A stretch of DNA of 64,000 bases from Novakomyces olei. Taxonomy: Eukaryota. The notes beneath the pieces were generated by a model. It worked only from the letters and a program-made list of their open reading frames with translations, made no database searches and had not been told where the DNA came from. Each line of letters opens with the position of its first letter. The first letter of the stretch is position 1. Location: the NCBI GenBank assembly GCA_016906335.1, contig JADEYG010000005.1, forward strand, positions 62,001 to 126,000. The letters are read 5' to 3'. This document shows, piece by piece, positions 32,806 through 48,183 of the stretch. Both the position numbers and the translations under genes were made by a program.

Positions 32806-33150
32806 CTGTCGACTTTCCCGGCCAAACAAAAGCCGTCAAACACGTTGAAAGAACATGGATAAAGAAAAGTATAAAGTTCTGACAGAATGCCTTAAAAGGA
32901 GACAGCAGGGCGGACGAGACCGCCGTGCAAAATATAAGGGGCGGGGATTAGTTGTGTAAATGTAGTTTGTCGTACATTAATAATCACCATTGCCCACAAT
33001 ATTTTAACCATATTGCAAATATCGTCTCCCCACGTGACGGACACAGCCAGCCAATCTCGGCGGCGTCGCTTTACCTCGATTAGATACCGCCAAGTGGGTA
33101 CAGACCAACGTTAGCTATACCCCTCGTTTTGTCGTACACGGCACCCAACC

Positions 33151-34158
33151 ATGTTGGCAAGCAATGCAGTCGATACAGCCAGAATGCCGACAAGCGTACA
33201 GTTTGATGCAGAGCGCCATCTTGCCATCGAGCTGCCGAAGCATATCGATCGGCTCTCCGATTTGGGTCTCGCTCAGGAACAAGAACTTTCAGACTTTGGG
33301 GCGTGTGCGCCTTTCCCCGTATTCACTCGCGAGGCTGTAGAGCTTATGCGGAACGATATCCTGAGCAAACCGGTTCTGGACAACTGCGTTTTTTCGCGGC
33401 CGGCTGCTCCTTGCTTTGTCAGGGGTTATGCTGGACGGTACTCGAGCTTTATCCGCGATGCTTGGATGCACCCAAAAGTACTGGCAACGCTTTCCAGCAT
33501 TGTCGGCCGTGAAGTTGTGCCTGTGTGTGACTATGAGATCGGGCACACAAACATTCAGCTGGACAATTCCGGTCTGGACGGACTGGCGTCGATACCCACG
33601 GCAATCGACACCCGTCGGGCCGAAGCTAATGTGAGCGAGAGTGAAGTGGACACTGCCCATTCGTACGACAGCAAACCCGTACACGACTGGCACTATGATC
33701 AGGTGCAGTTTGTAGCGCTTTTAATGCTTTCAGACACGTCCAGCATGCGCGGAGGACATACGGCCATTCGCTGTGGAGACGGAAGTGTTCGCAATATTCC
33801 GTGCCCTGGGCTAGGCCAGGTAGTGATTATGCAGGGTGGCCGAATTATGCACGCTGCTACCCGGTCAACAGCCCTGCCGGGCACTATTGCGCCAGAGCGA
33901 ATTGTCAGTGTGACTTCTCTGCGCTTTAAGGACCCTAATCTTCCCGATACAACGAACTTGCAAACCGCTCGGGAAGTGGAGAACCTTCAGGAAGCTTGCC
34001 GTCAGTATGCGCTATACCGAACAGAGATAATGTGCCAGAGACTCCAGGCTGCCATCCTGGCAAACAACCTGCAGACAGCAGCATTCGATCGTCAAGCATT
34101 CGCTTCATACTTGAACGAACAGATTTCGTTCATGCAACATACGGCCGCGCAAATGTAG
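33151..34158 (+). CDS. Uncharacterised Fe(II)/2OG dioxygenase-fold protein (paralogue B of 14818-15950), intronless
   Basis: FDAERHL, PFPVFTREAVELMR, DYEIGHTN, WHYD (HxD), GGHTA, MQGGRIMHAA (distal His), ERIVSVTSLR. Motif order is collinear with paralogue A. Confidence 0.8.
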   Translation: MLASNAVDTARMPTSVQFDAERHLAIELPKHIDRLSDLGLAQEQELSDFGACAPFPVFTREAVELMRNDILSKPVLDNCVFSRPAAPCFVRGYAGRYSSFIRDAWMHPKVLATLSSIVGREVVPVCDYEIGHTNIQLDNSGLDGLASIPTAIDTRRAEANVSESEVDTAHSYDSKPVHDWHYDQVQFVALLMLSDTSSMRGGHTAIRCGDGSVRNIPCPGLGQVVIMQGGRIMHAATRSTALPGTIAPERIVSVTSLRFKDPNLPDTTNLQTAREVENLQEACRQYALYRTEIMCQRLQAAILANNLQTAAFDRQAFASYLNEQISFMQHTAAQM

Positions 34159-34459: not shown

Positions 34460-36531
34460 TCAGCATAAAATGTTTGTAAAATATTCGTCTAACAAAAAAC
34501 TGTCTATTCCACCACCAGATCCAACGAGACCATCTGGCCGTAAAATCACTATCCCGCCCTTGTCTATTGGAAAGCCAAACTTTTCGTGGGCTAAACTAGT
34601 AGTGTCGTAAAAAGTGTCCCCAAATGGATCCATCCCCAGAGTTTCGTAGGGCGAATATCCGGAAATTGCGCTTACTGTAATCCAACCCGCAGCGTTTTTA
34701 ACTTTTCCCAAATTTTTATTGCTCTCAAGATCGTGCTTTAACTGCAACAGTGATTCACGCGTGGACACCACGTTTCCCACAAAAACCAAAATCCAAAATT
34801 TGGCAAAGTTGCGCGTAATACGTTGAAGACGGATAACATGCCCTGTTCCAGGCACGCAAAGTTCCACATCAGCCGGCCGGCTTCCCGGAGGTTGCAGTCC
34901 TGCACTTGTCCCTCTTTTATTGACATCATTTGCGGGATAAGATATACCCAGCCCAGTGTTGAATGAAGCGGCTTTCTCAAAAATCTCTCCGAGTACGAGG
35001 TATGGGTCAGCATCCACATCGCCCTTGTACCACGAAGGCCACTTATGCGACATCAGTATTGAAATATCTCTGTCATAATCAATCAACTGCTGTACTGCCG
35101 TCATTCGCTCTGTTGAATACGTATCCAGAACGTTAGGTTTAGTGATATTTGCGATGTGCAGAGCAAGTTTCCAGCCTAAATTCACAGCATCATGAATACC
35201 CGTGTTTAGACCCTGTGCGGCTCCACTGCTGTGCGTATGAGCTGCGTCACCACAGAGAAAGACACGGTTCTTTGTAAATGTTGCGGCCTTTCTCTGGCCG
35301 ATTGAGTACCTGAGAACGATTAGCAGTTCATTCCAAGCTGAACACGAATTATTCAATCTGTTTTTATTCAATCTGTTTTTATTCAATCTGCTTTTATTCG
35401 GTCTATTTTTACAGTATTTTTTTAAATATTCTTTTGTCGCAAAGAGACTTACAGCGTCCACCAGTGAGTTTCTTTGAACGACACCTTGAACGGCTTCATG
35501 CACTCAATAGCTTCTTTTTCTGCTATTTCTTGTGTGATTCCGTGAGGATACTTTGAGGCAATTTCTGCGCTATAAGCATAACCGATTCGCGTTGCACCGT
35601 GATCCAGCGGCGCCCAAAGAACATTGCCATGAGTTTTGCTTTCAATGGCACTAGCAATTAGACAAGTCAAATCTAAAAGGTTTCTATAGTAATGCTCTAA
35701 TTACCCATAAGATCGGTTCAAGGGCATGTCGGTCTCCACTATTCCATCGATACGAACCCAAGCGTCACTCGTGGAATCGCCTTCAAACGGGATTCCGGCG
35801 TGTCTGCGGACAAAGCTTCGTCCGCCATCTGCTCCAACGAGATATTTGCTAAACTGTATCAGCCACCACACGCATTTCCGCATCTGACGGGTCCATTTGG
35901 AAACCAAAAATCCGCTTCTACTGCTCTCCTTACCTGTTCACACTGAACGTTTCTCCCGTACTCTTGACTTTAAAGCTCGCTTTCACGGAGTCGTTCACGT
36001 CTTGGAAATCAGTGCATTCCACTGACTGGAAATAATCTATTCCCATGCACCGTAGTTTTTCACGTAAAATTTCCTCAGTGTACATTTGACGAAGCACTAG
36101 CACAAAGTCATAGGTCGTGTCGGAAATATTCTCTATAAATGACCAGACTCTTCCGGGCAGCCTTCACGGATTAGCTGGTGCTGAAATATGAGATTCGCAT
36201 CTGAACGCAATCGCAAGACTAGGATAAAAAAATCAAACGGTTACGTATAGACGATGTCAACGTACACTCTTTCTCCGTCTTTGTAAGTTACGCTTGTTCG
36301 ACACGCAAAGCCGAGTTGGAGCATTGGCTCGATAAGATCTAATTGATCCAATAGTTCCAGAGTTCTTGGAAACAGGGCAATAGCTCTTCCGTATACGTCT
36401 TGCGTGCTTTTATCATACTGCTCCACAATACATACGCTGACTCCAAACCTTTTTAGCTGGTACGCAAGGAGCAAACCTACGGGACCTCCACCCACAATCA
36501 AAACATCGTAGCTTTCGGACTTGGGATACAT
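34460..36531 (-). CDS. Class A FAD-dependent monooxygenase (phenol hydroxylase PheA/TfdB-like), about 5 exons
   Basis: DVLIVGGGPVGL, YLVGADGGRS (DG motif), RVFLCGDAAHTHS...GLNTGIHDAVNLGWKL (GD motif), C-terminal ILRPDG. Confidence 0.88.
35349..35399. repeat. 15-bp tandem repeat (TTATTCAATCTGTTT) x3 in a monooxygenase intron
   Basis: Directly visible in the sequence. Confidence 0.9.
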
Positions 36532-37439
36532 CTCCAGTCTTGCTCGGTATTGCTTTACCGGTTTCTCGCAGAATATTGGTGCGAGCTTTATCGGTGTAAA
36601 AGAAGTAAAGTATTTCTAACAAGCTTTGCTCCTGGAATACTTTCGAGTCGAAATCCTTTAGGAAATTCAGTAAATTGGATTGTTTTCGTCTATTAGATAA
36701 AATGTCAATACCGCGTGTAACATTCGGCAATGTTTATTCCATTCAGTGAATTAGTTCCCAATAGAGAAACGTCTACCAAAAATTTGGATTTTGTTTTACA
36801 ATGTAAAGCGATGATATTGCCATATTTGCCTTTATATGGCTTTTATCCATCAATCGGCAAATATCATTATTCTTGAGGGTAAATATTATTCTATTAATTT
36901 TAAAGCGTTTGTCCTAAATTACGTTTTGTCGTCTTTTACAGCGATAGGAAACGTCCGACAGAATAAATTCGTACATATTAAAAGTCCACTATTTATAGCA
37001 CCCTTATCATATCCCACGTAAGATGTGGGGGCCAAATAGAGATTCCACAAGTACCGTTTCCGTACACGAAAACTATTTATCCGTCAAATTCTCGCGCGCC
37101 AAGTAAGCCAACCCACCGGTGTGAATAAATCCTCAAAGTAGAATACATTAATCGAAAAGATTTCGTATGTACTTGCGCATTGTTAATAGGTGCCTTAACT
37201 AGGTCAATATTAATATTTATGAACACATAGAATGGCCAAGCTATTATCATTATTGTCTAGTGTTATCGTTAAGCGTTGACATTAAAAGATTTTGTGCGGG
37301 GCGGGCGGCTATTATGAATACCCGCCCGTCCAATTTTCGTGTCTGATAACCCAATCTCACACTCTTAGTCCTCCTCTATTGCGAGACTGCTGAATTGACC
37401 AGCCTTGATTGTAGCACAGCCTTTTGATTTCCCGCGTCA

Positions 37440-39137
37440 ATGCCGATTCTCAAAGCGCGCAAGGCGGTGGCCTTTCAGGTCCAAAAAGGCCAAACTGTCA
37501 CGGTGGTGAACACCTTTGGCAAACAGGTAGTGGACTTTTTCGCATTCAATCCTCAAGACCCACATGACTACCTGTCCATGGTCCACTGCCGAACCATTCT
37601 CTTGAAGGTCTCTCTGAGCAAAGGCGACAAACTGTACTCCACACGTCGAAAGCCGATGCTTACACTGGTCGAGGATACAACACGAGGAGTCCATGACATG
37701 ATCTGGTCTGCTTGTGATCCGGAGCGGTACCATATGCAGGGCTTTCAGGGCTACCACGATAACTGTACAGACAACATGCACAAGGTGAGTGGTTTGGTGT
37801 TTTGCTGATAGTGCGGATCGCTGACGTCAGGCGTTGAATGAATATTTCCCGAATTTCAAAATTGCCGACGACTGGGTCCCCGATCCCTTGAACTTGTTTA
37901 TGAATGTTGCCATTGATCACCATGGCGGGTTGAACGTGAAAACTCCGACTAGCGAAAAGGGCGAATATGTCACGCTTCGGGCGGAGACTGATTTGATCAT
38001 TGTCATGAGCTCTTGTCCACAGGACATTGAACAAGTAAATGGAGGCGAACCAACTGACTGCGAATATACTGTCTCTGGAGGAAGCTCTCAAATCGCACCT
38101 GTGGTTAAAGCCAAAAGAGTTCCACGAGTCAAAATTTCGTTTTCCGTTGATTTTGATGGAGTTTCTCACTGGCTTGGAACTGGCTGCCATCCGGATAATA
38201 ATATGGCCGATTATAGCTCCGGTATATTTTCCGGCCAAGTTGGAGTGTACCGCCTTTTGGCACTGTTTAAAAAACATGCTATAGCGAATAAGGTGACATG
38301 GTTTGTCCCTGGTCATACGACAGAAACTTTCCCTGACGCAGCTCGGGCAGTTCTCGAATCGGGAGCGGAAATCGGTCTTCACGGATACTCACACGAGGGA
38401 ATCTATCAGATGACAGAAGAGCAGGAAAAAGAAGTTCTTTTGAAATGGTAGGTTGGCCCGAGAAGAATACGCTTTGACACGAACGATAAAGATACGGGAA
38501 TCGTGCCAACAAAATAAATTTCTGCTGCTAACAATATAGTATTGACGTTGCTACCAAACTGGTCGGTAAAAAGCCAAGGGGCTACAGAGCTCCTATGTAT
38601 ACGATTCGGGAAACTACAGTTAAGTTGTTGAGAGAGCACGAGCTCTTGTACGATTCGTCTCTGGCTCATCATGACTCACAGCCATATTTTACGCCAAACG
38701 ATCCGCCAATTAAACCAATCGATTTCTCTCAGCCAGCTTCGTCCTGGCTTAAGCCCTCTGAGATTGCCTCCCAAGAGTACCCGAAAGATCAGCATCCTTT
38801 GGTAGAGCTTCCCTGTGGCTGGTACAACGAGGACATGATGCCGCTGCAGTACCTTCCACATCTCGCGAACAGTATGGGATACATCCCAACACGCTCTGTG
38901 GAGCAAATGTGGAAAGACAAATTCATGTGGCTATGGAATAACGGCAAAGAGGGTTCAGAGTTTGCGGATTTCGTTTTCCCGGTTCTAATTCACCCTGATA
39001 CCAGCGGAATGGCTCACATTATTGGGATGATTGATAGATTCGTGGGCTGGTTGAAGAGTTTTGGTGAATCTGTAGAGTTTTGCACTCACGAAGATATCGC
39101 CAGAGGTTGGTTGAAGGCGCAGACTCAACGCTCATAG
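37440..39137 (+). CDS. Fusion protein: N-terminal DUF1989 (urea-carboxylase-associated / Tdm-type) domain plus C-terminal CE4 NodB-homology deacetylase (HpPgdA/PuuE-like); introns 37785-37830 and 38448-38539
   Basis: DUF1989: GKQVVDF, HDMIWSAC, HDNCTDN, PDPLNLFMN, SSCPQD. CE4: SVDFDG, TWFVPGH, EIGLHGYSHE, GYRAP, YDSSL, IHPD. The domain junction lies inside one open exon. Confidence 0.85.
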
Positions 39138-39540
39138 CAAAAATAAAGTCAAAATCGCTATAATTATGAAAAGTGAAGTAGTGCAGCTTAGTCGAATTTG
39201 AGTTTAATACATGAACGCGACACTCAAACTCGTTATAGAGATTGCAAGGTCAAATGGTTAGCAAGCGCGCAACGGCAGTTTACTGTGTTATAAGCATTGC
39301 CTAAAAATACAATAACTATTATAGATCTAGTGTCGCACAGCACTCAGCACGCAAATGAAAGTTTGTCCATGTTTATCGAGTCCAGATCCTGTTCTACCTT
39401 TACTTTTGCTCACACTAACGCAAATGTTTTCCGAGTGGGGTACATCTACTTTTTGGCCAAAATCTCGAAGTAGCAAATTGTGGAGACTCTTAAAATATAT
39501 TGGTCAAATAGACAAAATTAAATAAGAACGGAAAAAGCGT

Positions 39541-40668
39541 TCAGTCACCTCCAACACTACTCAAAAGCTCGGCGGACGGCATGAAGAAAACTGTTCCTGT
39601 TAACGGAGTCGAGAAGTCAAGAATTCGATCGTGGGATCCTGGAGGGTCACCGACAAACATGCGCTCCAGCATTTTTTCCGTTACCCAGAGTCGGGCCGAG
39701 TAGCCAATGAAATAAGTACCAAACACTCCATGGCCTGGCGACCCAAAAGGCATATTATCGCGTACGATATCAAACTCCTCCCCTTGTTCGTTTTGTACAG
39801 TAGCCAGAGTTTTGTGTGATTTTTGTTCGTTAGCCTTTGCATCACCGAGCTCTACGTTATCAAATTTCCGTCTGCCGATAATTCTCTCCTGTGCCTCTGT
39901 TGGAAGTTTGTTCCAGGCATCCAAAGCATGCACGTATTTTTGTACAACACAATAGGTCCCACTGGAGGCAGCTTTATCCAGCTCCTGTGTGACTAGTACC
40001 GTCTCTGGAACTGCGGGTCCGACAGGATTAGCAGTACCATCTACAAAGCCGAGGAGATCGCGAGCATCAAAGTAGCGAAACCCCTGTGTCTCATCCACGA
40101 CTTTTACTGAAGCCGCTAATGACTCCAAGATCAATCGCTCGAGTTCAAAACAAAGATCCTGGCGATCAGCCCTGATATGGAAAAGAAGATCGCCCGGCGT
40201 TGAAGGCGCTGTATGCTTATTGCCTTTAATCTCTCGGAAAGAGTGCAATTCTTTCGGCCGCTGGCAACCCTTCATAACAGAATCCCACGCATCACTGCCA
40301 ATGCCGACAGCACAAGACAATTTGGCATCGGCATCGCGAAAGCTGACATTTTTAACCAAATCTGCAATGCCGCTGACACAGTCACGTACGCTTTCAGCCG
40401 CGTCCGGTGCCTTTGTGATTTCACATACTAAAAAGGTGGCAAATGATGTGAGCGGGAGATCTACTGCCGGCTGCGGTGATGCTGAGGCTGCCATGTGACA
40501 ACTGCTGTCCACGAATGATCGTTTAATTGGCGGCCTGAAAGCTGATTTGCTGCGTAAGCCTTGCTGCTGTAATGGGCGAAGCGGTACAGTGCTGTAGACT
40601 CTGCGAATCTGACCCTTTGAATGAATGCTAAACACCGTTCTCGCACGGATCGCTGACAAATTGATCAT
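39541..40668 (-). CDS. Dye-decolorizing peroxidase (DyP), bacterial class B/DypB-like, intronless, with a basic N-terminal extension
   Basis: STPGDLLFHIRA, RDLLGFVDGTANP (GxxDG distal Asp), QKYVH, KSHKTL (proximal His), IVRDNMPFG (distal Arg), GTYFIGY, DRILDFS. Confidence 0.9.
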   Translation of the reverse strand: MINLSAIRARTVFSIHSKGQIRRVYSTVPLRPLQQQGLRSKSAFRPPIKRSFVDSSCHMAASASPQPAVDLPLTSFATFLVCEITKAPDAAESVRDCVSGIADLVKNVSFRDADAKLSCAVGIGSDAWDSVMKGCQRPKELHSFREIKGNKHTAPSTPGDLLFHIRADRQDLCFELERLILESLAASVKVVDETQGFRYFDARDLLGFVDGTANPVGPAVPETVLVTQELDKAASSGTYCVVQKYVHALDAWNKLPTEAQERIIGRRKFDNVELGDAKANEQKSHKTLATVQNEQGEEFDIVRDNMPFGSPGHGVFGTYFIGYSARLWVTEKMLERMFVGDPPGSHDRILDFSTPLTGTVFFMPSAELLSSVGGD

Positions 40669-41026
40669 AAGACGTTGGCAGACACGGAGCGAGCAATGAT
40701 CAGTGCCGTTTAAATTTATACGCTACCCCATTGGTCGGCTGGCGATCTTCTATAAATGTTGGCAACTAGTTTATATGTAAGAGGGAAGCGTAACCGACAA
40801 GCAATCGCTACCGCCGGGATTGCTTGTTCGTTATACGCGCTCTAATCTATAATCGATCGGCCTAATTAGCAGTCAGCCTTAAACCAGAGTCAATCTTAAA
40901 GCTGGTTTAGCATGACGATTACCTATAAACTATTTCAATGCAAGCAGTGTACGTGTAATAATCTCGTATACGCATAGATTATTTCCAAGCTCTGGCGTGA
41001 AAGAAACGGGCAACGCAGTACCGCCT

Positions 41027-42892
41027 CTAGTAGCCCAGGCCACCGCGGGCGCCGACGTAATCAACAAGGTCAAAAAGACTCTTCTTATAATGCCTTTCCA
41101 TGGTGGTAAGATTGACAGTTTGCATGCCAAAGTGGGAATCATAGTCACCAAACTCCCAATTGTCCATAAAACTCCAGGCAAATGCGCCGGCCACGTGAAC
41201 GCCATCCTCCCAAATCGCTTTCAAAAGTTCAGACATGAAGGATAGGTAGTACTGGCTGCGTGGGGTATCAAACAGCTGGTCAGGCAGCTCTTTATCTACT
41301 TCGCCAAACACGGGGAATCCGAATTCGGAAACGATAATGGGAGTCTCAAACGTGTTCCAGAGATAAGACAGGTATTCCCGGAGATACGTGGGCGTGTTGT
41401 ATACGTACGAGTAGGAGCGATATCCAATGTTCCAACCAAAACTATTTGTCCACTCCTGTACCACACAGTACGGATACAGTGGGTTAACACTAGCATTTTG
41501 TTGCACACAGGCCTCAATGCCCTCAGCGGGCACATACACGGACGTAGCAGTATAGGCATCAATACCGAAAAAGTCGGTAGTGTTGCCAATGTACGCCAGT
41601 TCCTCCGCGCTCAGAGGTTTGGCCCCCGGCAAAGTTGTCAGCAAGGCGTCCGGATACTGCTGACCTAGGCAAATGGGGTAGGCAAACCCACCGAGTTGCA
41701 TGTCGTTAAACCTTTTGGCCGCAGCAACTTCCGTTTCGTTGTCGGGGTGTTTGGGCACAGCAAAATTGTCGTTCAACTTGAATCCAACTTGTCCAGTGCC
41801 ACACAGGGTGTCGTGATAGTAATGGTAAAGAATTGCGTGGGCATGAACAACGTTATCGATACCGGCAAAGTCGTACGAGTAAAGCAGAGGCTCGTTTATC
41901 GTTACCCAATAAGGTACACGGTCGGCAAAGTGGGTGAACAGAATCTTGCCATAATGGACAAAAGCTTCAATGAAATCCGGGTGGTGGTAGCCACCATTGG
42001 CATTTCCAATTGGTGGAATGGCTGTAATGTTTTCATTTTGAACGAAATAAAGCGGTGTGTCGAAATGCAGCATGGAAACAACCGGGACCATCCCCACCTG
42101 CAAAACGTAATCGATCAAGTCCTGATAGTGTTGAATACCCTGCTGGTTGATTGGTGTTCCCGGAAGGGTAAAGGGGAGAATGCGTGACCACGAAATTGAG
42201 AAACTGTAATATTTTATGCCCATCGCCGCCAGACGGTTGATGTCCTGCTTGTACAAGTAGTAGCTTTCCGTGCCCACGTAATCCTTAGCACGGGAATCAG
42301 GTATAAGTTTTTCCATGATAGAAGGTCCACGGCCTTCCAAACCAATTGCTCCCTCAATTTGAGCAGCAGATCCAGCCACACCAAACAAAAAGTCTGGGGG
42401 GAAAGTGTAATTGTCAGTAGGGCCAAAGTAATCAGCTGGCGGAAGTATCAATTCGCTGGACGGGACTGGAGTTGGTGCAACCGTAGCTGAGTAAATCCCA
42501 GCTTGCGTATAGTTGATTAGCTTTGCATTTTGCCAAAGCGAAGACCAGGCTGCCTGGCCGTAAGGGTCAGCCCAATCTTGAGCAGTGATTTGTGTCTGGT
42601 TGGGCAGCCATGATCCATAGGTGGTCGTTATCAATGGGAAGTCGAGGCATTGCTTAGCTTCATCGTACGAAGCTGCGTACGTGGGCGTAGCGGTGGCCGG
42701 GGGAATCGATGATGCATAGCGAACAGTATCGCTTAACGAATACGAAAAGGGTTTGTGGTAGTACGTGGGACAGGCAGTAGCCCTCACACGGTCCGCCGTT
42801 GTTGTGACATAGATCTCTTGCGCCTGTGCCAGGGCAGCCAAGAATAAAATTAATATCATTTTTAACATCTCACAGAACCGAAAGCTCGACAT
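41027..42892 (-). CDS. Secreted glycoside hydrolase family 1 (beta-glucosidase/beta-hexosidase) with a long Thr/Pro-rich N-terminal extension, intronless
   Basis: Signal-like MILILFLAALAQA; FGVAGSAAQIEG, FSISWSRI, TINEP (acid/base Glu), VSEFG (nucleophile Glu), WSFMDNWEF. Confidence 0.9.
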   Translation of the reverse strand: MSSFRFCEMLKMILILFLAALAQAQEIYVTTTADRVRATACPTYYHKPFSYSLSDTVRYASSIPPATATPTYAASYDEAKQCLDFPLITTTYGSWLPNQTQITAQDWADPYGQAAWSSLWQNAKLINYTQAGIYSATVAPTPVPSSELILPPADYFGPTDNYTFPPDFLFGVAGSAAQIEGAIGLEGRGPSIMEKLIPDSRAKDYVGTESYYLYKQDINRLAAMGIKYYSFSISWSRILPFTLPGTPINQQGIQHYQDLIDYVLQVGMVPVVSMLHFDTPLYFVQNENITAIPPIGNANGGYHHPDFIEAFVHYGKILFTHFADRVPYWVTINEPLLYSYDFAGIDNVVHAHAILYHYYHDTLCGTGQVGFKLNDNFAVPKHPDNETEVAAAKRFNDMQLGGFAYPICLGQQYPDALLTTLPGAKPLSAEELAYIGNTTDFFGIDAYTATSVYVPAEGIEACVQQNASVNPLYPYCVVQEWTNSFGWNIGYRSYSYVYNTPTYLREYLSYLWNTFETPIIVSEFGFPVFGEVDKELPDQLFDTPRSQYYLSFMSELLKAIWEDGVHVAGAFAWSFMDNWEFGDYDSHFGMQTVNLTTMERHYKKSLFDLVDYVGARGGLGY

Positions 42893-43976
42893 TAGAACTT
42901 GAGCTGGTTTTGGTACCAGAAGTTTATTTTAATTTTTATTTGTTCCCCCTCTTTCTGTATGATTAACCCGCTGCTGCTTTTTTAGTTTTCCTCCCGGTCG
43001 GCTCTCGTCTATTTATTTATAGGCTGATTAAATCCGTTTAAATTCCATTCGTGTTTCTCCATTGCATACGACAAAAGACCATTCTCAATTGTTCCTATTG
43101 CAGCTGCAAAATTTTCGCTTAGAGTGACTGCCTCGCATGTGTTTCCTAGCTGAATGCCGTGTTTGCCAATCGATTGTGGTACTTCAACCGCTGCTCCCAC
43201 CCAACGCTTTCCTTTTTGGGATTGCGGGGATAATAATATTAAATCGCAACAATTTTTCATTCTAGTACTTAAGCCCACATTCAAGTAATCCCATATTTAG
43301 AACGAAACTGTCGCACCCCAAGAATGATAATTAAATCGTTCGAACGCTTTGGGATCCAGCTTCCATCGCTTTTCCAAACGGAGAAATATTTTTTTCTACA
43401 GGATATAATCGGCGTCCGAGGGAAACCATCAGATGTAAAGTAGATAATATTAAGCGAGCGATGCTATAATGTATGCGGGCGTGTTATCGGCAGTTGCGTA
43501 CCGTTTATAGCAAAAACGTGAGGTACCAATAACAAAAAACAAAAATAGACAATGATGCATCATTCCTGACCCCGCATCAAGGAACATATATTTGTAATCA
43601 AAAATATTTGCTTTAGCAATTGCTTTGAGGTGATAGTCGGTCAAAATTATACCGATTAAGGCCGCAATAGTTGCATTGTTTGTTGACGCCGTTGTATACT
43701 CCGAAAACATCGGTCGTAAAACAATGCAAAGACCAGCCTATTTGAAGTTTGATGTGTAAAATGCTCATTGCAGCAATCTTTTGCTACTCGTAAGCCTATT
43801 TTCTATATGAGAAGTTAAACAGGTCCCTCAAAAAGAAACATTGGAGGCTATTAAGCGTTAACGCTGAGAATCTGTCGTTTAGTTACTCGGAAAAATACAA
43901 GCACTATATTAAAGGAGGAGAATCTATACGGAGAATAAACCTAATAATAACCTACAGCAAGACAACAAGTTATGCC

Positions 43977-45833
43977 CTAAAATTTGTCAGTCTTTGGATC
44001 GACCGTAACTTGGACGACTTGACCGTCAATATAATCTTGCTCATAGCCTTGCTGAAGTGATTCCTGGTGCGGAAAGATATGGCACAACAAAGTGTACAGT
44101 CCGCCCCCAACCGCAATTCCTACGAGGTAATTCAAGTCATAAATATACTGTGCTCCGCCTATATTGACATTGGGGTTGACGCTATTGATGAGGCCCGGCA
44201 TGTTGAGCGCAATTGCAGAGACCAGTGCAATGACAGCACGGAAATTGGTGCCTTTGTAATAACGATAGCATCCCCTCGGATCATAGAGAGCCGGCACATT
44301 AATTTTACCCCGTTTCACAAAGTAATAATCTGCAATACAAATTCCAGAAATAGGAGCAAGAAATATGGCGAGAGCAGATATGAAAGTGACAAGCTGCGGC
44401 GCACTACCAGAAATTTTCCAGGGGACCATGACCCAGCCGCCTACGATTGTGCCAATCAGCGCAGAGCGGCGAATATTCAAATAAGATGGGTAAAGCGTCG
44501 ACAGGTCGTTGGCAATGGAAATTACGTTGGCGGACATGTTTATACCAATCTGTGCAGCACAAAAGGAAATGCCACAGAAAAAAGCAGCAGCCCGTCCTGC
44601 AGGACTTGTCCAGTGGCTCAAAAGCTCTGCAGGACTCCAAATAAAAGTCCCGTACAGCACTCGGCCAGCACTACAGGCAATCATGCCCATTGTACCGATG
44701 TAAACTCCCATTATTGGTAAGCACGCAGCTTGTAATACCTGGCTTTTCGGTTTTGCAACGTAGCGGGAAACATCTGCGATATTGGTCGCCATTGTCGCCC
44801 ATCCACAGGTTGTCTCAAATACCATATAAACCGTCATCCATCTTCTTTCTGCTCCTTGAACAGTGGCGCTTTGATGAAACATTTCACCAGAACTTCCAGC
44901 CCTCACTGTCATACCAATAACAATCCCAATCGTGGTAGCTAGCATCATAACGGTTTTGGCATGGAAGAACCATCGCATCTTGTGTGGAGGGATAAGAACA
45001 AATGGCAGTTGTATTGTCCAAAAGATGAAATGAGCAACTAGTGTTTTCGAATCCACATCCTGGCTCGCAGGTACAGGGTTGTTTATGTGTCGGAACGACG
45101 GCCATATGGCAGCAATTACCTCCACCATGACTTGTGAGCCACTGTACGTTTGTAATGCATGCCAAAATATGGCAGTAACTGTTTGTTAGGCGCGTGCGCG
45201 ATTGACAATGGTATAAATGAGCAGGCATAGCGGAATCATAAGCGGAGAATAGTTAGATTTGCGCATTCTGCGTTGAACGACAAGTATTGAAATTTCGATT
45301 CGTAGTCATAAAAGACGTAAATTGGAAGTTTAAACTTACTTATTCGAATGATGACAACTACACGTGCAAAATAATACCCGAAACTGCTGCGGGCTTGGAC
45401 TGGGAAGGGAATACGTAGCTGAGCACCGATGTAACCATTAAGCACGACCGGGACGGCAATGAAAGCATCGCCAATGGCAGTGCAGTAGAGAGCCTCGCGA
45501 AAAGTCAAGCCCACCTGAAAATTGGTTAGTTTTGTCTTTGCTCGATCGTGGTAGATGGGTATAATTTCAAAAGGTTCTTGCACTTGATTATAGAATGAAT
45601 TGCGATACCCCAATAATAGTAGACATGGACTCCCATCCTTGAATAGACAGAATATCACTAAACCAGTAGGCAACAACTGTATACGGTTGCCATGTTTGTC
45701 GTTCTTTTGGCGTTGGATCAATATCGATATTAGTTTTGACATACGCGGGCGCTACAGCGCTCGGCTCTGTCTGCAGCTCCCAGGCGCGCACGCTGGTCAG
45801 CCGCCGCTTTAATTCCTTTTTGCTCCACAACAT
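43977..45833 (-). CDS. NCS1 nucleobase:cation symporter (Fur4/Dal4-type uracil/allantoin permease family), 3 exons
   Basis: NIDIDPTP, PFPVQARSSFG, ATNIADVSRY, NMSANVIS, PSYLNIRR, PWKI, FLAPISGICIADYY, NFRA. Confidence 0.88.
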
Positions 45834-46818
45834 ATCTCTTTTGGTCGGAAGCACCGAGTCTGATCTTGATTTATATAGAATCCTCCTCCTGGTTATTTCA
45901 TAATCCTATTTATCTCAAGCCTCGCAGAATACTAAATTTATACGCCAGAAGATTCATCATCGGATAACCATCGCGCTTAAGCCAATCGGGTAATTTGACA
46001 GCTCTAGCAGATAAAGATAACCCACGCCGACGGAGTGGGGCGATATAGATAGGGTTTATTTCTTAGGGTTTTTTGGAGATAAAGAGGGCTTCATCGTGGA
46101 AGAAGCATATTTTAAGGGGCGGAATATTATGAGTAGAATATTATGGAGTAGAAGAAATAAAAAAAGGAGACGATCAAATTTTGAGCCTCGTTTTGTATTA
46201 CCAGGAGGTGCTTCAAATGAGCAACAACGAGCAAACGGTAAATTGAGCAGTACGAGAATTGAATACTCTGAATGCATTTAGTTTGGCAATTTTGTATTAT
46301 CAAACTTTACGTTATCGTCAAAATTTCACGACTTGTTTATCTCAGGTACTAGACACGTGTAACCCCGTCGGCTATCCAGTCATTCGTCTATAACACAAAC
46401 GGTTAGACAAGTCACATAGAGCGCCTATTATGTGAACGACTGCAGGGTTAAAATTAAGATTAAGCCATCCAGAACTACAAGGTCATTTCTCCTGTTTATT
46501 GTTGTTCGTAGGACAAATGAGGGAAAAAATGCATTAAAACCGATTTGTTCAAATTAAACAGCCAAAATGAGATATAAAATTAGACAATCCGCTACTGGTT
46601 TGAATCAATCCGAATAAAAGACTATGGCCACAGCAGTTTATGATATGCCTTACATTAAATTGAGCCTAGACCTGCTCATATCTTATATTTATTATTTGAT
46701 GTTAATCATTGCGAAGCATGTACTGAACAAGATTGGATTGATCCTCGAAATATCACCATCCTGAAGATTCTCAAATAATGCTTAATTAATTAATATCCAT
46801 CTGCTTGGAGATCGAGTC

Positions 46819-47421
46819 TCAGATATCCTTGTCCTGGAGTATTGCGAATAATTTCCCCAAAGCACTATCTAATGCCTTTGTTGATCCGTCAGATTCCCAA
46901 GTCTGAAGAAAAGTGTCAGGCAGCTCATGAGGCGGCGACGGCGTAACTTTTATCTGAAAAGAAGGCATTGGTTCAACAGCTAAAAGTCCCACAGCATGAG
47001 AAATTTGTTTCCAATGCTGAGCGGCCTTTGTTCCGCCGTGGCCACCATAGGTAACGATCACGACTGGTTTGTCTTGCCATTCGTGATACAGCAAATCAAT
47101 TGCATTCTTCCCCACAGCCGGTACAGACCAATTGTATTGAGGCGATACAATGATAAAGCCAGTGCTTGCTTTGACGCGACTTGACCAGTCACGTGTCTCC
47201 TCTTTGATGTAATGTGGAGTCGGATTACTCTTAGGAAGAGCTTGTGGAATATTGGTTTCTTCATAAAAAGGTAAACGGTTCTCTGCCGCCCCGAGATCAA
47301 CAGTTTCTAGCTCAATGTTTAGAGGCTTCAGCGCTTGGGCTGCGTTCAACACATACTTTGTTATTAGAGGTCCTATGCGTTGCGGCCTTCCACTGCAGCT
47401 GATCACGAGGACGCGTCCCAT
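46819..47421 (-). CDS. NADPH-dependent FMN reductase / flavodoxin-like quinone reductase (Lot6-like), intronless
   Basis: SCSGRPQRIG P-loop-like motif, SPQYNWSVPAVGKNAID, TYGGHGG. Confidence 0.85.
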   Translation of the reverse strand: MGRVLVISCSGRPQRIGPLITKYVLNAAQALKPLNIELETVDLGAAENRLPFYEETNIPQALPKSNPTPHYIKEETRDWSSRVKASTGFIIVSPQYNWSVPAVGKNAIDLLYHEWQDKPVVIVTYGGHGGTKAAQHWKQISHAVGLLAVEPMPSFQIKVTPSPPHELPDTFLQTWESDGSTKALDSALGKLFAILQDKDI

Positions 47422-48183
47422 TATAAATCAAATAATAAATGTGCTAGTTATATTATCTGTATTTATATGATCGTTCAAAGGATAAACCAGCGTGATAAAC
47501 CAGCGTAGATTAAAAACATGCCAATTACTTGCATATTTATACGCTGAAAAGGGAGACATTAACCGATAAGGACTCTATCGCCGCTGATAAGGGCCTTTCT
47601 CCGCAATCTATTATGGTAAGGCCGACTGGAAAGCAAGTACTATATTACCAGAATTTCAGCTCAATAAAAATGAATCGAGAGCGGCCAGCAGATTAGTACG
47701 ATTTAAAAAATTGAAATTCAGGTACGTAAAATCATCGTCCAATGGCAAAGCTACCAAGCCAGCTTTACCAGCAAACAAGTAACGTTGAGTGCCAGTGCAC
47801 TTTTGTCGTAACTGGTGTAGAAGGCCGGTGTCGTCACTGCGGAGATGGCTTTGTGAAAAAAGCGATAGTTCATATAGCCGCACCGACTGACGAATTGTAG
47901 ATGATTTTATATTGTGTTGAGACCTAGAATTGTAGAACTTGTATATAGTTACAAAGGAATGATTAGGTTGGCTTCACTGGCTCTAGTTGTCATTCTTCGA
48001 TCTGCCTTTAAAGACTGACAGATTTTCCTATTTATCCTCTGTCTGGTATACTCTTATGCAGAAATGCACTGTATTCTACGAATGCTGATATAATTTGTGT
48101 TTCAAGAACGGATTCATCTTTGTATCGCACTCTTGATGGTATCCGTTTTTTAAGAAGCTATATTAATTTGACCATTACAGTCT

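What the first reader, a model, noticed from the sequence alone, without database searches (positions are those of the whole stretch)
37440..39137. DUF1989 fused in frame to a PuuE/PgdA-like CE4 amidohydrolase
Seen: the junction (...CPQDIEQVNGGEPTDCEYTVSGGSSQIAPVVKAKRVPRVKISFSVDFDG...) lies within one exon, so the fusion does not depend on splice prediction. The DUF1989 half keeps three spaced Cys (SAC, DNC, SCP); the CE4 half keeps DFD and HGYSH; there is no signal peptide. Established: DUF1989 occurs in carboxyguanidine deiminase CgdAB and as the Cys-Zn domain of bacterial TMAO demethylase Tdm; HpPgdA/PuuE-like CE4 proteins include small-molecule amidohydrolases (PuuE allantoinase). Inference: a bifunctional cytosolic enzyme for two consecutive steps on a nitrogen-rich small molecule, co-regulated with the divergent flavin monooxygenase. 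I know of no characterised example of this architecture.
Basis: partly seen in the sequence, partly recalled or inferred. Interest (0 to 1): 0.75.

Follow-up and report, generated by a model that had tools for sequence, protein, structure and literature searches.

The report
Fungal DUF1989–cyclic-imidase fusion enzyme
A real fungal gene joins a zinc enzyme of unknown role to a ring-opening amidase, and the same two enzymes sit side by side in bacterial operons, pointing to an undescribed two-step route for breaking down small nitrogen-rich ring compounds.

Summary
Window 37440-39137 (+) is one three-exon gene of 519 aa. The DUF1989/CE4 junction lies inside exon 2, and intronless fungal copies carry both domains in one open frame.

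The fusion is conserved across Pezizomycotina: 76 of the 120 listed protein clusters carry both domains. All are unannotated as to function, and my literature searches found nothing on it.

- **C-terminal half:** a full-length HpPgdA-type CE4. This is the subfamily of the Aspergillus cyclic imide hydrolase HxnM.
- **N-terminal half:** a 3ORU-type Cys3-Zn DUF1989.
- **Active sites:** the residues of both halves are kept in 59-62 of 62 fused proteins.

New support for functional coupling:
- In 8 of 60 listed bacterial plasmid records, DUF1989 and CE4 genes are adjacent. Of the 7 I inspected, 6 include an amidase, 3 an NCS1 permease and 5 a flavin reductase.
- In two divergent fungal metagenome loci the fusion sits beside a beta-alanine-synthase-type carbamoylase.

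Best reading (0.5): a cytosolic bifunctional enzyme doing two consecutive C-N hydrolytic steps on a small N-heterocycle. The likely order is deimination, then ring opening.

Coupling to the divergent monooxygenase is not conserved.

The parts
37440..37784 (+). Exon 1 (aa 1-115): N-terminal two thirds of the DUF1989 domain. Carries D32, C92, H106 and C109.
   Evidence: PF09347, 5.8e-34; aligned to 3ORU and to TMAO demethylase 9Q59.
37785..37830 (+). Intron 1, 46 nt, GTGAGT...CAG, phase 0.
   Evidence: Removing it restores a colinear alignment with homologues.
37831..38447 (+). Exon 2 (aa 116-321): end of DUF1989 (C177, D180), linker, and start of the CE4 domain (D222, D224, H299, H303). It contains the fusion junction.
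38053..38124 (+). Interdomain linker, about aa 190-213 (…EPTDCEYTVSGGSSQIAPVVKAKRVP…). It lies between the end of the 3ORU alignment and the start of the HpPgdA alignment.
   Evidence: One search gives the alignment limits; in the AlphaFold2 model of homologue P0003, residues 200-213 have pLDDT below 50.
38448..38539 (+). Intron 2, 92 nt, GTAGGT...TAG, phase 2.
38540..39137 (+). Exon 3 (aa 321-519 plus stop): C-terminal two thirds of the HpPgdA-like CE4 domain. Includes the 'arm' region and H472/D474.
   Evidence: homologue P0002 against 3QBU, E 3.5e-64 over the whole CE4 half.
34463..36531 (-). Divergently transcribed FAD monooxygenase (FAD_binding_3 + Phe_hydrox_dim). This is the same two-domain make-up as the phenol-2-monooxygenase-like HxnV. 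Multi-exon; the ATG is about 908 bp from the fusion gene's ATG. The link to the fusion gene is not shown.
   Evidence: The neighbour is not conserved beside fused genes elsewhere.
43980..45751 (-). NCS1 family permease (Transp_cyt_pur; nearest NCBIfam models are ncs1 and allantoin permease). It is a possible accessory, because NCS1 'cytosine permeases' sit in 3 of the 7 inspected bacterial DUF1989-CE4 clusters. Class-level resemblance only.
   Evidence: One search shows only weak similarity to the bacterial permeases.
46822..47427 (-). NADPH-dependent FMN reductase (FMN_red). It is a possible accessory, because flavodoxin-like or OYE flavin reductases sit in 5 of the 7 inspected bacterial clusters. 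The family differs from theirs and no orthology is shown.

Best explanation
The gene encodes a cytosolic, two-domain zinc enzyme. It carries out two consecutive hydrolytic C-N cleavages on a small nitrogen heterocycle used as a nitrogen source.

**C-terminal domain.** It is an HpPgdA-type CE4 amidohydrolase, of the kind that opens cyclic imide or ureide rings. HxnM opens 3-hydroxypiperidine-2,6-dione, and PuuE opens the hydantoin ring of allantoin.

**N-terminal domain.** It is a 3ORU-type DUF1989 whose Cys3-Zn site binds and polarises a heteroatom of the substrate. Its characterised relatives are carboxyguanidine deiminase CgdAB (acyl-guanidine to acyl-urea plus NH3) and the catalytic core of TMAO demethylase.

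**Most likely order (inferred).**
1. DUF1989 converts a cyclic acyl-guanidine or acyl-amidine (creatinine-, glycocyamidine-, cytosine- or isocytosine-like) into the matching cyclic acyl-urea or imide, releasing NH3.
2. The CE4 domain opens that ring to an N-carbamoyl acid or half-amide.
3. A separately encoded carbamoylase (fungal loci) or amidase (bacterial operons) finishes the breakdown.

**Shown:** the gene structure, the domain identities, conservation of both active sites, conservation of the fusion, and the recurrent genomic coupling.

**Inferred:** the chemistry, the order of the steps and the substrate class.
For: 1. **One gene.** The junction lies in one exon, and intronless fused ORFs occur in three fungal metagenome loci.

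2. **The fusion is conserved.** 76 of the 120 listed clusters carry PF09347 + PF01522, from Sordariomycetes, Eurotiomycetes, Leotiomycetes and Dothideomycetes.
   - In the CE4 tree the 30 fused rows need only one change of label. 28 of them fall in a 96* clade, and all 30 in a 99* clade.
   - All 28 fungal DUF1989 rows form one 99* clade.

3. **Both active sites are kept** in 59-62 of 62 fused proteins.
   - DUF1989: D32, C92, H106, C109, C177, D180. D32 aligns with the D220 of Paracoccus TDM that is mutated in PDB 9Q5A. The cysteines align with the 3Cys:Zn motif.
   - CE4: D222, D224, H299, H303, H472. These match HpPgdA D12, D14, H86, H90 and H247.

4. **CE4 subfamily identity.** HpPgdA 3QBU scores E 3.5e-64 over the full length. 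HxnM carries the same CE4_HpPgdA_like domain and is a genetically and metabolomically assigned cyclic imide hydrolase.

5. **Bacterial coupling.** 8 of the 60 listed plasmid records (820 had a match) have both halves adjacent on one strand. I inspected 7.
   - Variovorax: DUF1989-CE4-amidase with overlapping genes, in the same order as the fusion.
   - 6 of 7 include an amidase; 3 of 7 an NCS1 cytosine permease; 5 of 7 a flavin reductase; 3 of 7 an ABC importer.
   - A further chromosomal case is L129: LysR-DUF1989-Amidohydro_1-CE4-amidase.

6. **The coupling arose more than once.** 7 of the 8 operon CE4s belong to a different deep CE4 clade (98*) from the Variovorax and fungal ones.

7. **Fungal neighbours.** In two fused loci whose proteins are 73% identical, the neighbouring gene is a beta-alanine synthase / hydantoinase-carbamoylase-family amidase. 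It scores E 6e-52 against 1R3N. This is the enzyme expected to act on an N-carbamoyl ring-opening product.

8. **Precedent.** In TMAO demethylase a DUF1989 catalytic domain hands its product to a fused second domain.
Against: - No activity data exist for any member.
- HpPgdA itself was inactive on every substrate tried, allantoin included.
- Coupling is a minority context in bacteria. 0 of 80 loci of the closest prokaryotic CE4 homologues had a DUF1989 within up to 8 kb. Only 1 of 20 loci of the closest alphaproteobacterial DUF1989 homologues had a CE4 within 6 kb.
- This window holds neither an amidase nor a carbamoylase detectable with the bacterial and fungal queries.
- Its permease and FMN reductase resemble the bacterial accessory genes only at the level of class.
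- The AlphaFold2 model gives no confident domain packing: pTM 0.52, with a disordered linker. A shared or channelled active site is therefore not supported.
- Standalone ~200-aa DUF1989 proteins nested among the fused ones occur in Fusarium and other fungi. The DUF1989 domain can apparently work, or at least persist, without a covalently attached CE4.
- The Cys3-Zn site is also structural in TDM, where cysteine-to-alanine mutants aggregate. Its conservation alone does not prove catalysis.
- The order of the steps and the substrate class rest on chemical analogy only.
Confidence: 0.5

Rival explanations
1. The partners are the same but the order is reversed. The CE4 domain first opens a cyclic imide or ureide. 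The DUF1989 domain then deiminates or deamidates the open-chain ureido, guanidino or half-amide product, much as CgdAB acts on open-chain carboxyguanidine.
For: The only hydrolytic DUF1989 enzyme characterised so far, CgdAB, acts on an open-chain substrate. In the Arthrobacter operon the gene order is CE4 then DUF1989, with no amidase present. Leisingera and Rhizobium have the order amidase-CE4-DUF1989.
Against: 6 of the 7 inspected bacterial clusters, and both informative fungal loci, already encode a dedicated amidase or carbamoylase for the open-chain product. That leaves the DUF1989 step more naturally upstream. In the fusion and in Variovorax and Aminobacter the order is DUF1989 then CE4. 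Gene order is weak evidence either way.
Confidence: 0.15
2. A hydroxypyridine or nicotinate-like (Hxn-type) side pathway. The divergent HxnV-like monooxygenase hydroxylates a pyridone. After reduction, the CE4 domain opens a glutarimide-type ring as HxnM does. The DUF1989 domain adds an accessory step such as deamination of an amino-pyridone.
For: The CE4 half is of the HxnM subfamily. The neighbouring monooxygenase has the HxnV domain make-up. The cited paper reports hxnV-plus-hxnM remnants in Sordariomycetes and HxnM paralogues in all dikarya. Sister fungal CE4 clades are fused to SDR domains, recalling the hxnW-hxnM couple. OYE reductases sit in the Streptomyces and Nocardia clusters, as HxnT does in the Hxn pathway.
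Against: The monooxygenase is not found in any of the 7 other fused loci, though only L142 has substantial upstream DNA. No HxnW, HxnT or HxnN counterpart lies beside the gene here. The fungal neighbours seen elsewhere are carbamoylases, which points to ureides rather than glutaramates.
Confidence: 0.12
3. The DUF1989 domain performs Tdm-like chemistry on an N-oxide or N-hydroxy compound rather than hydrolytic deimination. The CE4 domain then deacylates or deformylates the product.
For: In TDM the Cys3-Zn site binds the N-oxide oxygen, and D220 (D32 here) is important. NCBIfam's best DUF1989-type match for both exons is the Tdm model, though far below its cut-off. Unchecked earlier notes of this scan report DUF1989 next to haem N-hydroxylases in bacteria.
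Against: There is no GcvT/THF domain, and no N-hydroxylase lies nearby. The recurrent partners are amidases, carbamoylases and nucleobase-type permeases, which fits hydrolytic ureide or imide catabolism.
Confidence: 0.08
4. The DUF1989 domain is a non-catalytic module for oligomerisation, stability or regulation. It is attached to an otherwise ordinary cyclic imidase.
For: In TDM the cysteines are structurally essential, and the DUF1989 domain forms oligomer interfaces. CgdAB is cited as including an inactive cognate subunit. Sister fungal CE4 clades carry degenerate SDR-like N-terminal domains with no Pfam match, so N-terminal appendages of this CE4 family can decay.
Against: Non-ligand residues of the TDM active site (D32, H106, D180) are kept in 60-61 of 62 fused proteins. 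Bacteria keep DUF1989 as a separate, co-transcribed gene next to two different CE4 lineages. That would be hard to explain for a mere scaffold.
Confidence: 0.08
5. It is a chitin, peptidoglycan or other polysaccharide deacetylase, as the database names say.
For: It matches Pfam Polysacc_deac_1, and the sources name it so.
Against: There is no signal peptide. The closest structure, HpPgdA, has a closed small-molecule pocket and showed no activity on GlcNAc or chitotriose. The neighbours and operon partners are small-molecule nitrogen catabolism genes.
Confidence: 0.03

Closest known systems
HxnM (AN6518), cyclic imide hydrolase of the Aspergillus nidulans nicotinate pathway
   Same: It is a fungal, cytosolic-type member of the CE4_HpPgdA_like subfamily that opens a small cyclic imide and feeds an amidase. 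The CE4 half here is a full-length member of the same subfamily with all metal and catalytic residues.
   Different: HxnM is a stand-alone 307-aa protein with no DUF1989, and it belongs to an hxn cluster. The paper gives HxnM as more than 60% identical to a Pseudomonas putida imidase. The CE4 half here is at most 40-45% identical to any prokaryotic homologue I found, so it is probably one of the 'HxnM paralogues' the paper mentions.
HpPgdA / HP0310 of Helicobacter pylori (PDB 3QBU, 4LY4)
   Same: It is the best solved-structure match over the whole CE4 half (E 3.5e-64 with homologue P0002). The Zn ligands D14, H86 and H90 and the catalytic D12 and H247 are all matched, and the 'arm' region is present.
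   Different: HpPgdA is a single-domain bacterial protein whose real substrate is unknown. There is no DUF1989 partner in the structure.
PuuE allantoinase (PDB 3CL6, 1Z7A)
   Same: It has the CE4 fold and opens a small cyclic ureide (a hydantoin ring). It is a more distant relative (E 5e-16).
   Different: The NCBIfam PuuE model scores 22 bits against a cut-off of 424.6. PuuE is described as not binding a metal, whereas the ligands are kept here.
Carboxyguanidine deiminase CgdAB (DUF1989; UAAP1/UAAP2)
   Same: It belongs to the same Pfam family and is a hydrolytic deiminase of an acyl-guanidine within a nitrogen-scavenging pathway. This is the chemical analogy behind the proposed first step.
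   Different: CgdAB is a heteromer of two paralogues working with guanidine carboxylase and allophanate hydrolase. Here there is a single DUF1989 domain, the NCBIfam scores are 52 and 48 bits against a cut-off of 284.7, and no carboxylase was seen among the ORFs scanned.
TMAO demethylase Tdm/TDM (PDB 9Q59)
   Same: Its DUF1989 catalytic core has a 3Cys:Zn site and a conserved Asp, and it is fused to a second domain that takes its product. The alignment confirms the equivalent residues.
   Different: The fused partner is a GcvT/THF domain rather than CE4, and there is an extra N-terminal pseudo-DUF1989 domain. The reaction is not hydrolytic. The NCBIfam score is about 57 bits against a cut-off of 1100.
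Structural-genomics DUF1989 protein, PDB 3ORU/3SIY
   Same: It is the closest solved relative of the N-terminal half (E 1.6e-50 with P0002 and 2.5e-29 with exon 1; about 50% identical) and has the same three cysteines.
   Different: It is a stand-alone bacterial protein of about 230 aa with no known function.
Hydantoinase-carbamoylase (hyu-type) gene sets with an NCS1 hydantoin permease (recalled from memory, not from a call)
   Same: The logic is the same as that seen around DUF1989-CE4 pairs: an NCS1 permease, a ring-opening amidohydrolase and an M20 carbamoylase.
   Different: The ring opener there is an amidohydrolase-superfamily hydantoinase and the extra enzyme is a racemase. Here the ring opener is a CE4 and the extra enzyme is a Cys3-Zn DUF1989.

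Membership tests
DUF1989 (Pfam PF09347) | Profile match above the gathering score | tested here: met
   117.6 bits (exon 1) and 51.2 bits (exon 2) against a cut-off of 27. Together they cover profile positions 3-168 of 168.
DUF1989 (Pfam PF09347) | Three-cysteine zinc site | tested here: met
   C92, C109 and C177 align with the cysteines of 3ORU. C92 and C109 also align with TDM C285 and C301. The cysteines are kept in 60-62 of 62 fused proteins.
Carboxyguanidine deiminase CgdA/CgdB (TIGR03424/TIGR03425) | Score above the NCBIfam cut-off | tested here: not met
   51.6 and 48.1 bits against 284.7; 27.2 and 37.1 bits against 205.95.
Carboxyguanidine deiminase CgdA/CgdB (TIGR03424/TIGR03425) | Two paralogous subunits beside a urea/guanidine carboxylase and an allophanate hydrolase | tested here: not met
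   There is a single DUF1989 domain. No carboxylase or amidase appeared among ORFs of 110 aa or more between 18 and 56 kb. No amidase appeared in the whole window by tblastn.
TMAO demethylase (NF053776) | Score above the cut-off, and a C-terminal GcvT/THF domain | tested here: not met
   56.9 and 56.1 bits against 1100. The C-terminal half is CE4, not GcvT.
CE4, HpPgdA-like subfamily (cyclic imidase type: HpPgdA, HxnM) | Full-length homology to HpPgdA | tested here: met
   homologue P0002 residues 211-517 against 3QBU residues 31-319, E 3.5e-64; window exon 2 against 3QBU, E 1.4e-26.
CE4, HpPgdA-like subfamily (cyclic imidase type: HpPgdA, HxnM) | Asp-His-His metal triad plus catalytic Asp and His | tested here: met
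   D224/H299/H303 and D222/H472 match HpPgdA D14/H86/H90 and D12/H247. They are kept in 61-62 of 62.
CE4, HpPgdA-like subfamily (cyclic imidase type: HpPgdA, HxnM) | Hydrolysis of a small cyclic imide | not testable with these tools
   This needs an enzyme assay. For HxnM the evidence is genetic and metabolomic.
CE4, HpPgdA-like subfamily (cyclic imidase type: HpPgdA, HxnM) | Orthology to HxnM itself (clustered with hxn genes; more than 60% identical to the P. putida imidase) | tested here: inconclusive
There is no hxn cluster here apart from an HxnV-like monooxygenase. The best prokaryotic identities are 40-45%. The paper's phylogeny supplement could not be read.
PuuE allantoinase (TIGR03212) | Score above the cut-off | tested here: not met
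   22.1 bits against 424.6.
Secreted polysaccharide (chitin/peptidoglycan) deacetylase | Signal peptide and an open polysaccharide groove | tested here: inconclusive
   No hydrophobic N-terminal leader is visible in the sequence, but no predictor was run. Groove geometry was not assessed, because the model's arm region has low confidence.

The most novel reading that the evidence does not exclude
The DUF1989-CE4 pair, fused in fungi and operonic in bacteria, is the core of an undescribed, ATP-independent pathway for cyclic guanidine or amidine heterocycles. Candidate substrates are creatinine, glycocyamidine, 2-iminohydantoins, and cytosine- or isocytosine-type bases. DUF1989 deiminates the ring to a hydantoin, dihydropyrimidine or imide. 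CE4 opens the ring. A carbamoylase or amidase releases the remaining nitrogen. This would give the large 3ORU-type DUF1989 subfamily its first function and identify a natural substrate class for HpPgdA-like CE4 enzymes.
Probability: 0.25. Interest if true: 0.75.

Novelty: new variant of a known kind. Interest (0 to 1): 0.6.

Why it matters
Two widespread enzyme families lack a settled physiological role. The 3ORU-type DUF1989 proteins have solved structures but no known function. The HpPgdA-like CE4 enzymes include a Helicobacter protein named a peptidoglycan deacetylase that shows no in vitro activity.

A conserved fungal fusion, together with independently assembled bacterial operons, ties the two families together. 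It also ties them to amidases or carbamoylases and to nucleobase-type permeases. This turns 'unknown function' into a short, testable list of substrates and a defined two-step assay.

If confirmed, it would add a new route of nitrogen scavenging from cyclic guanidines, ureides or imides in soil fungi and bacteria. It would also supply ATP-independent ring-opening biocatalysts of the hydantoinase-carbamoylase kind.

Tried and rejected
- **Whole genome of the window:** none is held, so paralogues and a distant amidase could not be sought.
- **RNA evidence:** no RNA holder was listed for 37300-39300, so splicing and a single transcript remain unverified.
- **Domain docking:** the complex-prediction job (DUF1989 domain against CE4 domain of homologue alignment A1) was counted but not folded.
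- **AlphaFold2 of homologue P0003 with a 29-row alignment:** pLDDT 72.1, pTM 0.52. This is too weak for domain packing, so no fold search was run.
- **Prokaryotic CE4 neighbourhoods:** asparaginase was next to the CE4 in 5 of the 22 loci whose neighbours were scanned. Branched-chain-type ABC transporters, CN-hydrolase, amidase, hydantoinase A/B, isochorismatase and GntR regulators were also present. This is a small-molecule nitrogen context, but none of the 80 loci had a DUF1989.
- **Neighbourhoods of the closest alphaproteobacterial DUF1989 genes:** mostly acyl-CoA dehydrogenase, SDR and DSBA-like genes. They were uninformative for this question.
- **Whole-genome survey with the fused protein:** only 3 candidates per genome were scored, so adjacency could not be counted from it.
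- **Degenerate-DUF1989 idea:** I considered that the ~540-aa CE4 proteins without PF09347 carry a degenerate DUF1989. hhalign rejected this (probability 0.1). They look like decayed SDR domains.
- **Recent transfer of a bacterial pair:** I considered that the fusion came from a bacterial DUF1989-CE4 pair. The CE4 tree argues against it. The fungal CE4s form one 100* clade, and 7 of the 8 operon-linked bacterial CE4s lie in another deep clade.
- **Paper supplements:** those of PMC8478523 (the HxnM phylogeny) could not be read. They may show whether the authors saw fused paralogues.
- **Earlier notes of this scan:** none lie near this place or resemble exon 2.
Full report
**1. The observation**

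The stop-to-stop ORF list and the sequence show three in-phase open stretches on the + strand, joined by two canonical fungal introns.
- Exon 1: 37440-37784.
- Intron 1: 46 nt, GTGAGT...CAG.
- Exon 2: 37831-38447.
- Intron 2: 92 nt, GTAGGT...TAG.
- Exon 3: 38540-39137, stop included.

Splicing by coordinates in a script gives 1560 nt, a 519-aa protein. It aligns over residues 1-519 with ~526-aa fungal proteins at 72-76% identity.

Pfam places DUF1989 on exon 1 (5.8e-34) and on residues 8-56 of exon 2. It places Polysacc_deac_1 on residues 141-201 of the same exon.

Three metagenome loci from fungi (L141, L142, L143) carry intronless copies with both domains in one open frame. No RNA data could be found, so the single transcript is inferred from DNA only.

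**2. How widespread it is**

I searched with exon 2 for longer proteins. It returned 205 proteins at E ≤ 0.001 among 1601 candidates, of which 120 were listed.
- 76 of the 120 carry both PF09347 and PF01522. Source names place them in Sordariomycetes, Eurotiomycetes, Leotiomycetes and Dothideomycetes. All are named 'hypothetical', 'NodB homology domain' or 'polysaccharide deacetylase family'.
- 26 of the 120 join the same CE4 subfamily to an SDR domain instead.
- A further set of ~540-aa proteins has an N-terminal region with no Pfam match. It is not a DUF1989 (hhalign probability 0.1).

*CE4-domain tree* (109 rows; I subsampled the fused and prokaryotic rows and left out four probable fragments):
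- The 30 fused rows need only one change of label.
- 28 of them form a 96* clade.
- All 30 lie in a 99* clade whose other members are the degenerate-N-terminus forms.

*DUF1989-domain tree* (52 rows):
- All 28 fungal rows form one 99* clade.
- The stand-alone ~200-aa fungal DUF1989 proteins (Fusarium, Cadophora, Xylogone, Xylariaceae) are nested among the fused ones at three or more places.
- This looks like secondary fission, loss of the CE4 half, or split gene models.

**3. What the two halves are**

*CE4 half.* With the 76%-identical homologue P0002, this half matches Helicobacter pylori HpPgdA (3QBU) over its whole length (E 3.5e-64). PuuE allantoinase is far weaker (5e-16).
- According to the passages I read, HpPgdA binds Zn through D14, H86 and H90, with D12 and H247 holding the water. 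It has a closed, small-molecule-sized pocket and was inactive on GlcNAc, chitotriose, acetyl-dipeptides and allantoin.
- The equivalent residues here are D224, H299, H303, D222 and H472. They are kept in 61-62 of 62 fused proteins.
- The only characterised fungal member of this subfamily is HxnM of Aspergillus nidulans (domain CE4_HpPgdA_like). HxnM opens 3-hydroxypiperidine-2,6-dione to alpha-hydroxyglutaramate, which the amidase HxnN then hydrolyses. The authors note HxnM paralogues in all dikarya (passages).

*DUF1989 half.* It matches the structural-genomics protein 3ORU (E 1.6e-50) and, more weakly, TMAO demethylase.
- In Paracoccus TDM the DUF1989 core carries a 3Cys:Zn site (C285, C301, C365) that binds the substrate oxygen. 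D220 is important, and the product passes through a tunnel to the fused THF domain (passages).
- Exon 1 aligns C92 and C109 with C285 and C301. It aligns D32 with D220. That position is confirmed because the deposited D220A mutant chain differs from the wild type exactly there.
- D32, C92, H106, C109, C177 and D180 are kept in 60-62 of 62 fused proteins.
- The protein does not reach the NCBIfam cut-offs for CgdA/B, Tdm or PuuE. It is a member of the two broad families but of none of the characterised equivalogs.

**4. Context in this window**

Pfam on ORFs of 110 aa or more between 18 and 56 kb (plus three shorter monooxygenase exon ORFs taken) gave the following:
- a divergent FAD_binding_3 + Phe_hydrox_dim monooxygenase (34463-36531, -), with the same domain make-up as HxnV;
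- a DyP peroxidase (39544-40722, -);
- a GH1 glycosidase (41030-42928, -);
- an NCS1 permease (43980-45751, -);
- an FMN reductase (46822-47427, -);
- a malic enzyme;
- a DHO_dh-like gene (51346-53061, +);
- upstream: amino-acid permeases, an MFS transporter, a DAO-type oxidoreductase and a Zn2Cys6 factor.

No amidase or carbamoylase was found in the whole window by tblastn.

**5. Context elsewhere: the new evidence**

*Most bacterial homologues are not paired.*
- The closest prokaryotic CE4 homologues (80 loci, 35-40% identity) never have a DUF1989 within up to 8 kb (0 of 80).
- The closest alphaproteobacterial DUF1989 genes rarely have a CE4 nearby (1 of 20).

*A subset is paired.* A tblastn of the fused homologue against 72,556 plasmid and chromid records found both halves adjacent on one strand in 8 of the 60 listed records, out of 820 with a match. 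I inspected seven of them.

| Organism | Arrangement |
|---|---|
| Variovorax paradoxus | DUF1989-CE4-amidase with overlapping genes, divergent from a polyamine-type ABC importer |
| Leisingera | ABC importer-amidase-CE4-DUF1989, beside a flavodoxin-like NAD(P)H oxidoreductase |
| Streptomyces | PucR regulator, then DUF1989-OYE reductase-CE4-MBL hydrolase-amidase |
| Nocardia | amidase, then DUF1989-OYE-CE4, then PucR and a cytosine permease |
| Rhizobium leguminosarum WSM1325 | cytosine permease, then NAD(P)H oxidoreductase-amidase-CE4-DUF1989 |
| Aminobacter | ABC importer with BMP-family binding protein-oxidoreductase-amidase-DUF1989-CE4 |
| Arthrobacter | CE4-DUF1989-cytosine permease |

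The chromosomal locus L129 adds LysR-DUF1989-Amidohydro_1-CE4-amidase.

*The pairing arose more than once.* In a tree with these CE4s added (70 rows):
- seven of the eight operon CE4s form a separate deep clade (98*);
- only the Variovorax one falls with the HpPgdA-like prokaryotic group (96*);
- the fungal CE4s are a 100* clade of their own.

So DUF1989 has been paired with CE4 enzymes of two different lineages in bacteria and, separately, fused to a fungal-lineage CE4. That is a much stronger sign of functional coupling than a single conserved operon.

*Fungal neighbours.* The two fungal metagenome loci with flanking DNA (L142 and L143; fused proteins 73% identical) both have an orthologous beta-alanine-synthase / hydantoinase-carbamoylase-family (M20) gene next to the fusion, in different orientations. 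It scores E 6e-52 against yeast beta-alanine synthase 1R3N, and NCBIfam gives 'hydantoinase/carbamoylase family amidase'. Neither locus has the monooxygenase.

**6. Mechanism**

The recurrent set is:
- a nucleobase- or hydantoin-type permease, or an ABC importer;
- DUF1989;
- often a flavin ene- or quinone-reductase;
- a CE4 ring opener;
- an amidase or carbamoylase.

This is the logic of cyclic ureide or imide catabolism. From memory, the classical hydantoinase-carbamoylase gene sets with an NCS1 hydantoin permease have the same layout.

Because a dedicated enzyme for the open-chain product is nearly always present, the DUF1989 step most naturally precedes ring opening. The one hydrolytic DUF1989 enzyme known, CgdAB, turns an acyl-guanidine into an acyl-urea plus ammonia. 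I saw this only as passages and a reference entry; the original paper was not read.

The same chemistry applied to a cyclic acyl-guanidine or acyl-amidine would yield exactly the kind of cyclic acyl-urea or imide that PuuE- and HxnM-type CE4 enzymes open. Creatinine to N-methylhydantoin to N-carbamoylsarcosine, and cytosine-type bases to (dihydro)uracil-type rings to N-carbamoyl-beta-alanine, are concrete examples. The classical enzymes of those routes are recalled, not taken from a call.

The order of steps, the substrate class and any channelling are inference. The AlphaFold2 model (pLDDT 72.1, pTM 0.52, linker 200-213 below 50) gives no support for a fixed interdomain geometry. The complex job gave no verdict.

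**7. Comparison with what is known, and novelty**

Each domain belongs to a known family, and the CE4 half to a subfamily with one characterised fungal enzyme. The fusion is present in public databases under generic names.

What I could not find in print is any description or characterisation of the DUF1989-CE4 architecture or of the DUF1989-CE4-amidase module.
- 'DUF1989' gave 3 papers, none on this.
- 'urea carboxylase-associated' plus 'polysaccharide deacetylase' gave 0 papers.
- 'cyclic imide hydrolase', 'half-amidase' and 'imidase' gave only the two versions of the Aspergillus paper.

The library lacks most subscription journals, and the supplement with the HxnM paralogue phylogeny could not be read.

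I rate it a new variant of a known kind: an imidase/hydantoinase-type nitrogen-scavenging module with an extra, uncharacterised Cys3-Zn step.

Earlier unchecked notes of this scan mention DUF1989 beside creatinine-like catabolic genes, beside an ATP-dependent ring opener, and beside haem N-hydroxylases. The first two are in line with my reading, and the last feeds a rival. I tested none of them.

**8. Verdict**

- **Observation:** confirmed.
- **Interpretation:** partly supported. The bifunctional small-molecule amidohydrolase reading is supported, and is now backed by independent genomic coupling. Linkage to the monooxygenase is not supported.
- **Interest:** 0.6. The finding is not a new kind of system. 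It does make the function of two orphan enzyme groups directly testable with a short substrate list.

Noticed in passing
Proteins P0081-P0120; P0085, P0088-P0091, P0097, P0100, P0105, P0108: The same fungal CE4 subfamily is fused N-terminally to an SDR domain in 26 of the 120 listed clusters. In a sister group of the DUF1989 fusions it is fused to a ~250-aa region with no Pfam match that looks like a decayed Rossmann/SDR domain. This recalls the divergent hxnW (SDR)-hxnM couple of the nicotinate cluster.
   Followed up: partly
Proteins P0228-P0252; tree: There are stand-alone ~200-aa fungal DUF1989 proteins (many Fusarium species, Cadophora, Xylogone, Xylariaceae), some named 'polysaccharide deacetylase family' although they have no CE4 domain. 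They nest inside the fused clade, which suggests fission, loss of the CE4 half or split gene models.
   Followed up: partly
L121, L122, L123, L126, L132, L137, L139: In 7 of 20 alphaproteobacterial loci the closest stand-alone DUF1989 gene lies beside an acyl-CoA dehydrogenase. An SDR, a DSBA-like protein, a carboxyltransferase or a thiolase is often nearby, giving a leucine/isovalerate-like catabolic setting. The genomes may be related, so these are not independent observations.
   Followed up: no
L008, L062, L073, L078, L079: Prokaryotic and archaeal HpPgdA-like CE4 genes lie next to an asparaginase/glutaminase gene in 5 of the 22 loci scanned. Three of these also have a branched-chain-type ABC transporter. 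This suggests an imide to half-amide to acid route without DUF1989.
   Followed up: no
window 43980-53061: A run of genes that could relate to nucleobase or heterocycle use: an NCS1 permease (nearest models ncs1 and allantoin permease), an FMN reductase, a malic enzyme and a multi-exon DHO_dh-like (dihydroorotate/dihydropyrimidine dehydrogenase-type) gene. Whether any of them works with the fusion gene is unknown.
   Followed up: partly
window 39544-40722 (-) and 41030-42928 (-): A DyP-type peroxidase with a long N-terminal extension, and a GH1 glycosidase with an apparent signal peptide, lie directly downstream of the fusion gene.
   Followed up: no
window ~35250-35480: A short tandem repeat lies inside the monooxygenase gene region. 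It is read as ...NKSRLNKNRLNKNRLNN... on the minus strand and as FNLFLFNLFLFNL on the plus strand. It is probably intronic.
   Followed up: no
window 33115-34155 (+): An open frame of 347 aa with no Pfam match at E ≤ 0.001, convergent with the monooxygenase gene.
   Followed up: no
L227 (Arthrobacter sp. NicSoilB8 plasmid): A minimal three-gene unit, CE4-DUF1989-cytosine permease, with an IS3 transposase directly downstream. It lies on a mobilizable plasmid.
   Followed up: no
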